From positions 288,734,001-288,798,000 of the forward strand of contig OZ024743.1 in the NCBI GenBank assembly GCA_964016885.1: a stretch of DNA of 64,000 bases, in the 5' to 3' direction. The notes under the pieces are model-generated. The model had not been told where the DNA came from and did no database searches. It saw nothing but the letters and a program-made list of their open reading frames with translations. Position numbers and translations under genes: made by a program. Source of the stretch: Eledone cirrhosa (lineage: Eukaryota). Below are positions 15,300-59,503 of the stretch, in pieces; position 1 is the stretch's first letter, and the number at the start of each line of letters is the position of its first letter.

Positions 15300-17340
15300 A
15301 AAGCGGTTTTGAATAATTGAAAACGTAATATGATACCATTTAAAATAGGAATACTCTTTCAGTCTCGCTATGAGAAGTAAATAACGAGGTTACACCCCAG
15401 GTTTTATCTCCCCTAAAGTAGAAAATATTGGCTCTTCATCTGTAAATGAAAACTCATTTTCTGTGCAAGGAGAGATATAGCAACTTATACATATTTAAGA
15501 AAAAGCACGTGGCTTAGTGATTAGGGTTCCCGTCGGTATCTTGAAATCTTGACATGACAAATAGATGTACCTGAAATTCAAAAGAGCATCTACTGCGTCA
15601 ATCCGAATAACCCTGATATTTATCAAAGGATGCACGTGTTTGTGGAATTCTCATCTACTAGCAATTTAATTTCACAAGCAGGTTTTTATGTTCTATCGGA
15701 ATACTCTTAGCCAAAAGCGACGGAGATCCAACAACATAGATATTTATAGTGAAATTTGCATAAACAGGGGATGAATATTATGCTAATAAGCTTTTTAGGA
15801 GTCACCGTTTGGTTTTTACACAAACAATTTCAACCAGACTATGCAGAGTAAGCAAAGTGGTTGCACTAGATGATTTTATCACTCTGCGTGTACAAAGATT
15901 GGGATTGTTGGGACAATCTTCAAACAGTCTCGGATTTTCATCAGAAAATGGATTTTCATTTTCTGTCAACTACTATATGTATATACACGGGGAGGAGATG
16001 GGCTTTGCAAGGTTTTAAAAAAGGCCCTAGAAGGGTATATTTCAATACGATGCGCCTACGACTCCTGCAGGAGTTACGGGACCATGCATGAATATGTATA
16101 TGTGTGTGTGTGTGTATATATATATATATATATATATATATTACATTGTCAACTGCTTTAACTTCAAATATATATTCGGTCTCATTCACTGGAACCATAA
16201 CGTACAAAGAAGAGTAAATCCCACAAGTGTTTCTAAACTATGTCCCCAACCTTCGTGGCAAACAACCGTTAACCTGCACCAATTTCTGAAATGGAGATGC
16301 CGGATGTCATTAGACTACAACTAACTCTTTGTCTTTTCTCTCTATCTATCTACAGGTATATATATGAAAATCCGTATGTGTTTGAGGTCTGAGAGAAAAG
16401 AGTATTAAATACCGAAGTAGTGTTTTAATATTCATTTTATTTAGGCTAAATAGTGAGTTTTTTACTCTGGATTTTTGCCTGTTTATCACATATATATGTC
16501 TGTGTGTCTGTTGTTATGGAAATACGGCTATATTCCAGTTTTAATTTCTATATTTGAATCTTATATTTTCTAAACTAAGATCTGTAAATTTCCTTTGGTA
16601 CAACATATTTCCTAGATACATAATTCATTCAACGGTCTAAAGATAACGATCAATTTAAAATTCAAAATTCGGTTGAAGGATTATACAATGATGGGCGAAG
16701 TAAGAACTACATACAACTAAATACAATGCATATAAGTATGAAAATTAGGCAGTAAAAATTAAAACTCCATATTTTGAGAACACAAGTCACTGGAATCATT
16801 GACAATACTATAGGCCTTGAACTATACAGGGTGATTAGAAAGTTAGAAGTTAGACCTGTATTCAACAACAGAAATCAGGTATAAAAAGAGTTATATATAA
16901 TTAATATATAATTATATATAATTAAATATTAAATAACTGGATCTACCAACTCATAATATTATAATATTATATTATAACATTAAATCATTAAAAAATTTTA
17001 AAACTACAAGTGAAGTCATTCTTTTCCTTTTTTTCAAATATATATATATATATATACACCTCTTCATTATAATCCTTCCCCTCACCTATCACACATACCA
17101 AAACATTCTTTCTAGTAAAACCACCAATCAAAAGGAACTTTATCTGACTTCCATAAATGAATGTGAATCGTTATATACTTTTTCTATGCCTTAAGAAGTT
17201 CATTCTATCATTAATTACCGCAGCGGAGGTCCGACGAGCTTTTGATTCCAGACTCGGGCTAGATCGCTACAGATCAAACCTTGAGCTGATCAATAGCGAA
17301 ACGCGCGTCACTACTCAATAAACGTAATGAAGACATAACA
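15300..17340 (+). pseudogene. Highly decayed Penelope-like element (RT relic plus 3' pLTR), interrupted by a SINE at ~15505-15735
   Basis: Frameshifted PLE RT motifs in the expected order: PRFYL-PKV (~15396-15424), ENGFSFSVNYYMYIHGEEMG (~15944-16003), NLHQFLK..NSLSFL (~16270-16340), KLEVRPVF (~16840-16863). It ends in an HHR-like motif and an inverted tail copy (17306-17340 / 17366-17400). Confidence 0.55.
17228..17312 (+). ncRNA. Hammerhead-like motif, variant core CCGACGA
   Basis: Stem II GCTTTTGAT/ATCAATAGC with a long insert, GAAA, palindromic stem III ACGCGCGT, triplet GUC. Stem I is short and the core has U4>C. Confidence 0.55.
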
Positions 17341-17400
17341 TATCTTCCTTTTTATTATTATTATTTGTTATGTCTTCATTACGTTTATTGAATAGTGATG

Positions 17401-17761
17401 CCCCCAGTACATTTGCTAAAAGGGGAATGAATGTGGTGAGAATGGCCCGTGAGAATGGGCCTACTCTGACGATGCGCCTATAGGCTAGCTAACTTGAGGA
17501 GAGGGGTGCTCTCCCTGGGTTCCCTAGAAGCGCAGGGTGGTTCAGGATTGGTGGGGTACCTGAGTCACCCCTGGGTTGTCCACCGCCTATAGGGTAATTT
17601 ATTTTGTTATATTTATGCATAGTTTATTTTATATTTTTATATCTTCATTGTTAAATTAGTCTTGCCATTTTGCACTTTTACTCGACTTTATGGTATACCC
17701 CCATTGTCCCTGTCTTTGTATTGTCCCCTACATGTCGGCCCTTGTGGCTAATAAATGAAAT
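17401..17761 (+). mobile_element. 5'-truncated L1/Tx1-like retrotransposon 3' end
   Basis: 17403-17483 encodes PSTFAKRGMNVVRMARENGPTLTMRL*, homologous to the C-terminus encoded at 38643-38730. The 3' end CCCTTGTGGCTAATAAATGAAA is followed by TCATCA(TTA)n. Confidence 0.7.
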
Positions 17762-17795
17762 CATCATTATTATTATTATTATTATTATTATTATT

Positions 17796-18141
17796 GTTCT
17801 TTGAGTCTCAGTCATTGATGTTATTTAACTGGAAAGTTTGTTAAAAATGAATATCAAGCCACTACCTGCAGCCTCAGATATTCAAGACGTATCGGAGGGT
17901 TCTTGCTGTTCCCAGCAAGCATGCCTTGAAGTGTTCCAAAAAGCGGGGCGGGACCAATTTTCTTTAACCATCCTTGGAAACTCTTTGAGATAGTACCTAG
18001 TGCGCCTATGACAATCGGGACCACTTTGACCTCATGGCAGTTCCAAATCCTTTTAACCTCCCACTTTAAGTCCTGGTATCGCTTAATTTTCTCCCTCTCC
18101 TTCTCTTGCACTCTCGTGTCGAATGGGCAAGCTACATCCAC
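17796..18141 (-). mobile_element. R4/Dong retrotransposon, short 5'-truncated copy 1
   Basis: Encodes [29 protein letters not shown], highly similar to the 3' end of 18433-20433. Flanked by (TAA)n. Confidence 0.93.
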
Positions 18142-18159
18142 ATTATTATTATTATTACT

Positions 18160-18410
18160 GTTCTTTGAGTCTCAGTCATTGATGTTATTTAACTGGAAAG
18201 TTTGTTGAAATGAATATCAAGCTGCTACCTGCAGCCTCAGATATTCAAGACGTATCGGAGGGTTCTTGCTGTTCCCAGCAAATATGCCTTTTGAAGTGTT
18301 CCAAAAAGCGGGGCTGGACTAATCTTCTTTAACCATCCCTGGAAACTCCTTGAGATAGTACCTAGTGCGCCTATGACAATCGGGACCACTTTGACTTCAT
18401 GGTAGTTCCT
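18160..18410 (-). mobile_element. R4/Dong retrotransposon, short 5'-truncated copy 2
   Basis: Same 3' end as its neighbours, with (TAA)n on both sides (18142-18157 and 18411-18434). Confidence 0.93.
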
Positions 18411-18432
18411 ATTATTATTATTATTATTATTA

Positions 18433-57356: not shown

Positions 57357-57530
57357 TTGTCTCTACTTTAGGCACAAGGCCAGCAATTACCCAGTGCATT
57401 ACAGGTACTTTATTTTATCGACCCCGTAAGGATGAAAGGCAAAGTAAACCTCGGCGGGATTTGAACTCAGACCTTAAAGGGACGTAACTATGCTGGAAAG
57501 CATGGCGTCCGACTCTCTACCGATACTGCC
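57357..57530 (-). mobile_element. SINE inserted in one repeat copy, 9-bp TSD GGAAAATAA
   Basis: TSD at 57348-57356 and 57531-57539. The empty site is present in the second copy at ~58250. Confidence 0.95.
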
Positions 57531-58210
57531 GGAAAATAACGTCCAGGTTATGCAAAAGCCTACACATAGTCTATAGGAATATATGCAGTTGGGCACTTAT
57601 AAATCATCAGAGGATGCCCAACAATATCGATATAAAAAAAAAACCTACCGATATTAACATTCAGCGATGGTAACTGTCAGTGTTAGAGTGACTGTCAAAT
57701 TTGAAATTCCAGCAGTCTCACAAAGAGAAATCTCACACCGACACCAAGCGGGAAGGGGAGGTCATCGCAAAACATAAAAAGATAAAATAATATGCACGCA
57801 GGTCAATTAATTCTGTCACGAATTTTAACCATGCGTGAAGAACTCAATTGAGTATAAAAAAATAAATATATGCATGTATTATTTATACATGCATATAGCT
57901 ATTTTCTCAGGCTAAAAACAGAGACAAGATATTGGAAAAACAATCAATATTTCATACAAAGAATAAATAAAGAAAGTCATACCTAAAAATATCTGGAAAC
58001 TTTCATCTCTGGCCAATTCAAGAGTATAATATTTAATACATTAACAGAGAAAGCTTTAAGTAATACTCCGACCGACTTCCGTCTCACTCAACAAACAATA
58101 GGATATACCTTAGTATAATCCCAATTATACGTTTGGGGGTCTAACTATACGTATTTTGCGGATAGCCAGTTGTATTATGTTATATGAGACATAATTAAAA
58201 ACATCCCTCT

Positions 58211-58334
58211 TTCCAAACGATCGTTTCATTATAAGTTTTCTACAAGTTGGGAAAATAATGTCCAGGTTATGTAGAAGCCTACACATAGTCCATAGGAATA
58301 TATGCAGGTGGGCACTTATAAATCATCAGAGGAT
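58211..58334 (-). ncRNA. Hammerhead motif with long stem II
   Basis: Minus strand: CTGATGA, stem II TTATAAGT/ACTTATAA (U.U closure), GAAA, palindromic stem III ACGATCGT, triplet GUU. Stem I is weak. Confidence 0.65.
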
Positions 58335-58801
58335 GCCCAACAATATCGATATAAAAAAACCTACCGATATTAAAATTCAGCGATGATACCCGTCAGTGTT
58401 AGAGTGACGGCCAAATATATAAATATATATACATATAAATATATATATATATATATATATATATATATATATATATATATATATATATATATATATATAT
58501 ATATATATATATATATATATATATATATATATATATATATATAGGAACAATAGCCGTCGAAACAGCTTGAGCTCTGCCGTCGGGGTCATACTTGTTCCTA
58601 TTACCCACTCTACTACCCTAAGTATTGAGTACTTTGGTGCGTTATGGTCCATCTGTTTCCTTACCACAATTCCGTCGTTATATATATATATATATATATA
58701 TATATATATATATATATATATATATATATATATATATATATATATATATATATTCAAAATATTAATAAATGAGAAATATTTTCACATAACCAAAGTATAT
58801 A

Positions 58802-58863
58802 TTTTATTATATATATATTTCAAGGGTATAGTATTTTTTTGAGTACGCTTTCATCAGATAAAA
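58802..58863 (-). ncRNA. Type I hammerhead motif, homolog of 36101-36162
   Basis: Minus strand: TTTTAT-CTGATGA-AAG-C-GTA...TAC-C-CTT-GAAA-TATATATAT-A-ATAAAA. Confidence 0.82.
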
Positions 58864-59420
58864 CACAAGAAATTGGTTATTCGACATACTACTATGGTCT
58901 TGATCCTTCCATCCCTATAGTGGCAGTCACTATGTCGAGTGCTTCTAATCTGTTGTAAAAATGAATTCGTTGAATAATCAACGAACCATATAAACTTTTG
59001 GTTATATATATGTATATATATATATATATAAATGGAATAGAATGAAACGAAATTTCATTTCTCACTCTTAGTACGGCACTTACTTAGATGTAAGTATGTA
59101 TGTATGTATACGTACATACATATATGTATACAGACGTACAGTAGTATGTATATATATACATACATGCACACATATATATATATATATGCACGTATCGGTT
59201 TACCGAACATTTATTATGATGCTCGGTTTGTATATATATATATATATATATAAAGAATTTGTATATCTACCAACATATATATACAGATGCATACCTATGC
59301 TAGCAAATATATAGGTTATGTCTTAGTAACTTTGTGGTTCAATGCAAGGGGATGCAGAACAATTATATGAAAGACGTAAAATAAGAAAATTATAAAAATT
59401 AACTTACTTACTAAAATTTC

Positions 59421-59503
59421 ACTCCAACTAATTAGTTTCTGAAAGGGAATAAATATGGTTTCCAAATGGAGAGCATGGAGAAGCCGTTTCGTCATCAGGA
59501 AGT
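59421..59503 (-). ncRNA. Hammerhead motif between ~155-bp direct repeats (59260-59414 / 59790-59944)
   Basis: Minus strand: stem I ACTTC/GGAGT, core CTGATGA, stem II GAAA/TTTC, GAAA, palindromic stem III ACTAATTAGT, triplet GUU. Confidence 0.7.

What the first reader, a model, noticed from the sequence alone, without database searches (positions are those of the whole stretch)
17228..59503. Stem III is independently palindromic in unrelated hammerheads, a signature of dimeric ribozymes
Seen: the segment from the last A of GAAA to the U before the cleavage site is a perfect palindrome in seven different sequence forms: ACGCGCGT (17301), ACTAGT (22416), ATATATAT (36148), ACCGGT (30.5k, 36.7k, 52.3k, 53.6k), ACATATGT (55851), ACGATCGT (58217) and ACTAATTAGT (59427). 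Established: HHRs with an unstable, nearly loopless stem III can cleave as double-hammerhead dimers. Inference: these motifs are selected to cleave only when two copies meet, for example in tandem pLTR transcripts. That fits the tandem direct repeats seen here.
Basis: partly seen in the sequence, partly recalled or inferred. Interest (0 to 1): 0.75.

Follow-up and report, generated by a model that had tools for sequence, protein, structure and literature searches.

The report
Penelope retroelement paired hammerhead ribozymes
The short palindromes are real and sit in hammerhead-ribozyme motifs of eight high-copy repeat families, two of them shown to be ends of Penelope-type jumping genes, where they are predicted to let two copies pair and cut each other; this design is already published, so the finding is ordinary.

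Summary
All 10 palindromes are at the stated places, each in the stem III slot of a type I hammerhead motif from one of 8 high-copy repeat families in a 3.0-Gb animal genome. The pattern is not chance: in 1 Mb of evenly spaced blocks, 67 of 111 hits from a palindrome-blind search were perfect palindromes, against 1 of 12 in reversed DNA. It is published (Perreault 2011, Fig. S8; Cervera 2014), and this scan noted it before in this genome and in two others. Cleavage was not tested. Best side result: a young Penelope-like family with RT and GIY-YIG carries a fixed A13C core change in 11,014 exact genomic matches. It is either an unreported active variant or a crippled ribozyme on a successful element.

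The parts
17228..17312 (+). Type I hammerhead motif, U4C core (CCGACGA at 17231), long loop II, stem III ACGCGCGT 17301-17308, predicted cut after 17309; stem I 3 bp
22386..22428 (+). Compact type I hammerhead, stem III ACTAGT 22416-22421, U.U at the base of stem II, predicted cut after 22422; best-formed of the listed sites
22096..22697 (+). 1.4 units of a 422-bp repeat between (TA)n runs, holding one hammerhead; the family forms head-to-tail arrays elsewhere (retrozyme-like; parent PLE not found)
24902..24939 (+).
30482..30518 (+). Variant motif, U3-A8 plus A13C (GCAA), stem III ACCGGT 30509-30514, stem I 3 A-U pairs; truncated pLTR end
36101..36162 (+). Type I hammerhead, stem III ATATATAT 36148-36155, predicted cut after 36156
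36358..36878 (.). Fold-back pair of pLTR ends of the A13C Penelope-like family; + copy core at 36655, ACCGGT 36678; - copy ACCGGT 36556 with an extra U4G change
43728..43790 (+).
51869..51915 (+).
52308..52342 (-). U3-A8 core motif (UUGAUAA), stem III ACCGGT 52311-52316, stem I 2 bp
53605..53639 (-). Second copy of the same family, same strand, 1297 bp away
55849..55959 (-). Long-loop motif in the 3' end of a PLE: core CTGAAGA at 55958, stem III ACATATGT 55851-55858, stem I reduced to 1 bp family-wide
56436..56900 (-). C-terminal remnant of the PLE ORF upstream of the 55958 motif (no Pfam hit itself; tblastn links it to a GIY-YIG-like ORF, and sister loci carry RT upstream)
57123..57700 (-). 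Second tandem copy of the ACGATCGT family (core 57610, palindrome 57315), with a ~180-bp SINE-like repeat at 57352-57530 inserted in loop II
58212..58333 (-). Long-loop hammerhead, core 58329, stem III ACGATCGT 58217-58224; U at 2.1 where the aligned relatives have A
58798..58867 (-).
59421..59503 (-). Type I hammerhead, core 59498, stem III ACTAATTAGT 59427-59436, in a 1.3-unit element (59249-59944) with one motif

Best explanation
These are type I hammerhead motifs in high-copy repeat families, two shown and the rest likely to be ends (pLTRs) or non-coding derivatives of Penelope-like retrotransposons, and their palindromic stem III is predicted to pair with the same palindrome of a second same-family copy so that both would be cut. 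In a head-to-tail precursor RNA, copy A's core would use copy B's U16.1-H17 and 3' stem I strand, and the reverse, which would release unit-length RNA. Selection would act on the tandem source copies. The dispersed copies in this window are mostly solo, inverted or damaged insertion products and are likely silent. Shown: sequence, repeat status, palindrome excess, and PLE linkage for two families. Inferred: dimer folding, cleavage and its purpose.
For: Palindrome excess in a palindrome-blind search: 67 of 111 against 1 of 12 reversed. 9 of 14 distinct central 4-mers are palindromic against 0.11 expected, p=3e-6 (298 loci that include the seeded families). These central bases cannot pair within one hairpin. 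Related lineages swap one palindrome for another: ACATATGT/ACAATTGT, ACGATCGT/ACAATTGT, ATATATAT/ATACGTAT/ATGCGCAT. Energetics favour the double fold by 7.7 to 16.3 kcal/mol at the ten listed sites. PLE linkage: all 24 sister loci of the 55.9k family carry the same ORF remnant. The A13C motif flanks RT-bearing ORFs in L331-L336, and L336 is pLTR-ORF-pLTR with 570-bp repeats 98.8% identical. Literature: PMC4209133 reports no monomer cleavage and low dimer/trimer cleavage for a Schistosoma motif.
Against: No cleavage or expression data. Six of the eight families were not tied to their own PLE ORF: only 2-3 of 24-29 flanking loci each had any PLE hit. Only 22 of 111 sampled motifs, and 20 of 199 family loci, have a same-strand partner nearby (10-kb and 3.2-kb views miss wider pairs). 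One well-formed family keeps a non-palindromic AGAACT (12 of 14 copies). In an anole PLE the ribozyme cut only when protein was added, was not needed for insertion in vitro, and no RNA-seq reads ended at the cut site (PMC11167929). Eight of nine Xenopus retrozyme dimers did not cleave (bioRxiv 10.64898/2026.07.22.740005).
Confidence: 0.78

Rival explanations
1. The 8-10-nt forms work as monomers (2-3 bp plus a loop), helped by protein; the palindrome only adds an optional dimer mode.
For: PMC7229834: invertebrate hammerheads with two pairs plus a tetraloop cleave efficiently, and the axolotl motifs cleave weakly as monomers and better as dimers. PMC11167929: protein-dependent cleavage. The AGAACT family persists without a palindrome.
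Against: The central bases stay self-complementary across families, which a monomer loop does not need. All monomer hairpins are unstable.
Confidence: 0.12
2. The ribozymes are mostly vestigial: palindromes are inherited from working ancestors, and present families spread without cleavage.
For: A13C is fixed in 11,014 exact matches, and A13 changes are reported to cost 10-100 fold (PMC4075628). The 55.9k family lost stem I yet has 2,186 first-look candidates. PLE clades without canonical hammerheads proliferate (PMC8557442). This is probably true for some families, and it is compatible with the best explanation for ancestors.
Against: Compensated palindrome swaps between related lineages and intact cores in most families.
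Confidence: 0.07
3. The palindromes are DNA-level by-products: (TA)n slippage, CpG decay or fold-back copying.
For: ATATATAT occurs 2,655 times in the window. ACGATCGT to ACAATTGT can arise from two CpG deaminations. Fold-back insertions are common (45 of 199 loci).
Against: Most forms are not TA repeats, they sit in exact register between A15.1 and U16.1, and the reversed control is 1 of 12.
Confidence: 0.03

Closest known systems
Hammerheads of metazoan PLE pLTRs with a small palindromic helix III (Cervera and de la Pena 2014, PMC4209133; read: abstract, results, discussion, start of methods)
   Same: Type I layout, extra base between A9 and stem II, short helix I, palindromic helix III, U3-A8 variant, mostly solo copies with some opposite-strand pairs, dimer model.
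   Different: Loops II up to ~90 nt, a fixed A13C family and a family with broken stem I are not mentioned in the parts I read; figures and supplements not seen.
Repeat-type hammerheads, Perreault et al. 2011 (PMC3088659; read: passages, section 8, Fig. S8 legend)
   Same: U3-A8 and U10.1-U11.1 are described.
   Different: A13C is not among the core variants named in section 8; the figures were not seen.
Lunse, Weinberg and Breaker, RNA Biol 14:1499 (PMC5785218; not held, title seen only in a reference list)
   Same: By its title, small PLE-associated hammerhead variants that cleave as dimers.
   Different: Unknown; it may already list the core variants seen here.
Metazoan non-LTR retrozymes (Cervera and de la Pena 2020, PMC7229834; bioRxiv 10.64898/2026.07.22.740005; passages read)
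   Same: The 422-bp ACTAGT unit and a 310-bp ACGCGT unit form head-to-tail arrays with one hammerhead per unit.
   Different: Circular RNA and expression were not testable; the 422-bp unit is slightly above the 170-400 nt RNA range.

Membership tests
Type I hammerhead ribozyme | Core C3-U4-G5-A6-N7-G8-A9 or a known variant | tested here: met
   All 10 sites: CUGANGA at five, U4C at 17231, U3-A8 at four. Variants are known from PMC4075628 and PMC3088659.
Type I hammerhead ribozyme | G12-A13-A14 and A15.1-U16.1, H17 (sites 17.3k, 22.4k, 36.1k, 52.3k, 53.6k, 55.9k, 58.2k, 59.4k) | tested here: met
   8 of 10 sites
Type I hammerhead ribozyme | G12-A13-A14 (sites 30.5k and 36.7k) | tested here: not met
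   GCAA, fixed in the family; the sister family has GAAA in 13,649 matches
Type I hammerhead ribozyme | Stem I paired next to the core | tested here: inconclusive
   5-6 bp at 3 sites, 3 bp at 3, 2 bp at 2, 1 bp at 55.9k, 0 at 58.2k where relatives have 4 bp
Type I hammerhead ribozyme | Site-specific self-cleavage | not testable with these tools
   Needs a bench assay
Dimeric (double) hammerhead | Stem III unstable as a hairpin and self-complementary through its centre | tested here: met
Dimeric (double) hammerhead | A second same-family copy on the same RNA | tested here: inconclusive
   Same-strand pairs: 22 of 111, 20 of 199; full pLTR pairs in L336 and L337; window pairs are damaged or weak
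Dimeric (double) hammerhead | Dimer cleaves faster than monomer | not testable with these tools
   Needs a bench assay
Penelope-like element pLTR | Motif in repeats flanking an RT plus GIY-YIG ORF, same strand (A13C and 55.9k families) | tested here: met
   RVT_1 and GIY-YIG hits in L332 and L334, RVT_1 in L336; 24 of 24 sister loci carry the ORF remnant
Penelope-like element pLTR | Same, for the other six families | tested here: inconclusive
   Only 1.5-kb flanks seen; 2-3 of 24-29 loci had PLE hits, not shown to be cognate
Neptune clade of PLEs (A13C family) | Placement in an RT phylogeny; CX2-5CxxC linker | not tested
   A C-X4-C-X2-C motif lies before the GIY-YIG in L332 and L334; no tree was built
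Non-LTR retrozyme (422-bp ACTAGT family) | Non-coding tandem unit with one hammerhead | tested here: met
   Arrays at ~424-bp spacing in L091 and L092
Non-LTR retrozyme (422-bp ACTAGT family) | Expressed as linear and circular RNA | not testable with these tools
   No RNA holder listed

The most novel reading that the evidence does not exclude
A young, protein-coding Penelope-like family with over 11,000 genomic copies uses a hammerhead with a C at the near-invariant position 13 plus U3-A8 and only three A-U pairs in stem I, and it still cleaves as a dimer, perhaps only with the element's own protein. That would be an unreported natural core variant. Its GAAA sister family (13,649 matches) is a built-in control for the open question of whether PLE hammerheads matter in vivo.
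Probability: 0.2. Interest if true: 0.45.

Novelty: already known. Interest (0 to 1): 0.15.

Why it matters
The headline adds one more genome to a rule published in 2011 and 2014. What remains useful is a test set. The genome holds roughly 3 x 10^5 such motifs (my extrapolation from 111 hits minus 12 control hits per Mb; tandem arrays inflate it) in at least 20 stem III forms. Among them are sister families with GAAA and GCAA cores and one with a broken stem I. These allow a direct test of whether PLE hammerheads are needed for transposition, which PMC8557442 calls unclear.

Tried and rejected
Rfam: no hammerhead match at gathering score and none among the top 150 of 614 E-value matches listed; uninformative for these minimal forms.

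Idea that 55851 lost its core by deletion: rejected. The core lies 107 nt upstream and aligns with an intact motif in a related PLE, L166. A pattern for a compact intact version found 0 matches.

Idea that long loops II hold a latch against the cut site: rejected as a general rule. Only 2 of 25 long-loop families reached p<=0.05, and they are the related pair that suggested it.

Selection on the A13C motif between two subfamilies: 0 substitutions in 27 structural columns against 24 in 218 flanking columns, p=0.052, inconclusive.

Expression: no RNA holder listed; read laying was not used.

Absolute fold probabilities (1e-3 to 1e-16) were set aside because the model has no tertiary terms.

Hammerhead downstream of GIY-YIG remnants: 6 of 32 stretches had a sense-strand hit and 1 an antisense hit; several stretches were short or duplicates, so this is only suggestive.

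A13C in print: search 'hammerhead' plus 'A13C' gave 0 papers; one search was also checked. Lunse et al. could not be read, and the supplements of PMC4209133, PMC3088659 and PMC8557442 were not opened, so novelty of A13C is not established.

Rows dropped: one search left out 20 of 318 loci (window copies and overlaps); one search used 199 loci after dropping window and most overlapping ones.
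Full report
Setting. The window lies at G000:C4:288734001-288798000 in a 3.0-Gb genome of 1,796 contigs. It is rich in (TA)n and other microsatellites. Other notes of this scan call the genome octopus-like; I did not test that.

Check of the observation. All seven palindromes are at the ten stated places. I assigned each a core, stems and a predicted cut site. Three sites are well formed (22392, 36107, 59498) and pass a strict descriptor. 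17231 has a U4C core and a 3-bp stem I; most of the 24 relatives share U4C, and a natural C at position 4 is known (PMC4075628, passages). 52340 and 53637 have the known U3-A8 core and a 2-bp stem I; this layout recurs across the 29 relatives examined, with few exceptions. 55851 has its core 107 nt upstream at 55958; it aligns with an intact motif in a related element (L166), but its stem I is 1 bp.

Is it more than chance? I fetched 100 evenly spaced 10-kb blocks from nine large contigs and ran a descriptor that does not look inside stem III. It gave 111 hits: 67 perfect palindromes, 12 complete with G.U, 7 odd-length with one central mismatch, 25 other. Reversed DNA gave 12 hits with 1 perfect. 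Clustered with stem III masked, 15 of 31 families occur in two or more blocks; 9 of the 12 with even forms of 6 nt or more have a palindromic central 4-mer, against 0.11 in the genome. Across 298 loci, which include the seeded families, 9 of 14 distinct central 4-mers are palindromic (p=3e-6). These bases cannot pair within one hairpin, so the excess points to pairing between molecules. Related lineages also exchange one palindrome for another, though one swap could be CpG decay. One family keeps AGAACT in 12 of 14 copies.

What the motifs belong to. Each of the eight window families is a dispersed repeat with 826 to 4,104 first-look candidates. Two are tied to Penelope-like ORFs. The 55.9k motif lies 478 nt downstream of an ORF remnant shared by 24 of 24 sister loci, with RT upstream in some. 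The GCAA motif flanks RT-bearing ORFs in L331-L336; L332 and L334 also show GIY-YIG, and L336 is a head-to-tail pLTR-ORF-pLTR with 570-bp repeats 98.8% identical. The ACTAGT family forms ~424-bp arrays like a retrozyme. For the other families PLE origin is inferred from their architecture, (TA)n flanks and inverted pairs.

Mechanism. At the ten listed sites the palindrome costs +1.5 to +6.0 kcal/mol as a hairpin and gains 3.2 to 13.3 as a duplex. In a modelled tandem, the double-hammerhead fold beats two monomer folds by 7.7 to 16.3 kcal/mol, against 4.9 and 6.2 for the two non-palindromic controls. The likely function is cutting of head-to-tail precursor RNA at source loci; this step is inferred. 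Most copies lack a partner. Of 111 sampled motifs, 66 are solo in their block, 23 have only an inverted partner and 22 a same-strand one, 15 of those in two arrays of one family. Of 199 family loci, 134 are solo, 45 inverted and 20 same-strand within 1.5 kb (wider pairs are missed). In the window, the 22k and 59k repeats hold one motif each, and the true tandem 58329/57610 is damaged in both copies. So the window's repeats give little support for cis dimers here.

Against a simple dimer story. Invertebrate hammerheads with two pairs plus a tetraloop are described as cleaving efficiently (PMC7229834, passages). An anole PLE ribozyme needed protein, was dispensable for insertion in vitro and left no read ends at the cut site (PMC11167929, passages). 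Eight of nine Xenopus dimers did not cleave (bioRxiv 10.64898/2026.07.22.740005, passages).

Comparison with what is known. Perreault 2011 states the palindromic stem III and the dimer reading in the Fig. S8 legend. Cervera 2014 lists it as a feature of PLE hammerheads and tested monomer against dimer. A 2019 review repeats it (PMC6765202, passages). This scan recorded the same idea in this genome (e1-9996111) and in two others. The finding works like, and for the well-formed sites is a member of, the PLE-type dimeric hammerheads. The GCAA sites fail one defining core base and the 55.9k site fails stem I, so these resemble hammerheads but are not filed as working ones.

Side result. The A13C family has 11,014 exact pattern matches and its GAAA sister 13,649. 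A13 changes are reported to cost 10-100 fold. The motif is unchanged between two subfamilies whose flanks differ at 24 of 218 columns, but this is not significant (p=0.052). One search found no paper with 'A13C' and 'hammerhead'; Lunse et al. and three supplements were not seen.

Verdict. Core numbering and the topology of the double hammerhead are from my own knowledge and PMC4209133.

Noticed in passing
window:30482-30518, 36358-36878; L331-L339: Young Penelope-like family with RT and GIY-YIG whose hammerhead has A13C plus U3-A8 fixed; 11,014 exact matches against 13,649 for the GAAA sister family.
   Followed up: partly
window:55849-55959 (-); L166:599-778: A segment at the 3' end of loop II is complementary over 8 bp to the strand after the cut site, both in this family and in its relative, with matched changes. 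It could be an alternative hairpin or a pseudoknot replacing the lost stem I; not general across 25 long-loop families.
   Followed up: partly
window:51869-51915: Well-formed hammerhead family with a non-palindromic AGAACT stem III (two A.A mismatches in a dimer); a natural control for the dimer rule.
   Followed up: partly
window:57352-57530: A ~180-bp SINE-like repeat, with about seven related copies in the window, inserted in loop II of a hammerhead with a TTATTTTCC duplication.
   Followed up: partly
window:2935 (-), 3071 (+), 23940 (+): Three copies of a CTGATGA motif with a weak stem II and a longer, near-palindromic 16-nt stem III candidate; they did not pass either descriptor.
   Followed up: no
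window:18509-20434 (-): 641-codon open frame with RVT_1 and zf-RVT hits, a non-LTR retrotransposon fragment unrelated to the hammerheads.
   Followed up: no
window:32974-33609 (+): Tc1/mariner-type transposase fragment (HTH_48, HTH_32 hits).
   Followed up: no
window:6459-6577 (+): Diverged 5S rRNA copy (56.8 bits), probably a pseudogene.
   Followed up: no
L269 and L274: 310-bp tandem arrays with an ACGCGT hammerhead in each unit (11 and 4 same-strand copies).
   Followed up: no
window:7743-8011 and 36181-36441: Palindromic MITE-like repeats without a hammerhead.
   Followed up: no
window:54625-55203 (-): Thr-rich tandem repeats (72-177 bp period) with open frames, mucin-like or low-complexity.
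   Followed up: no
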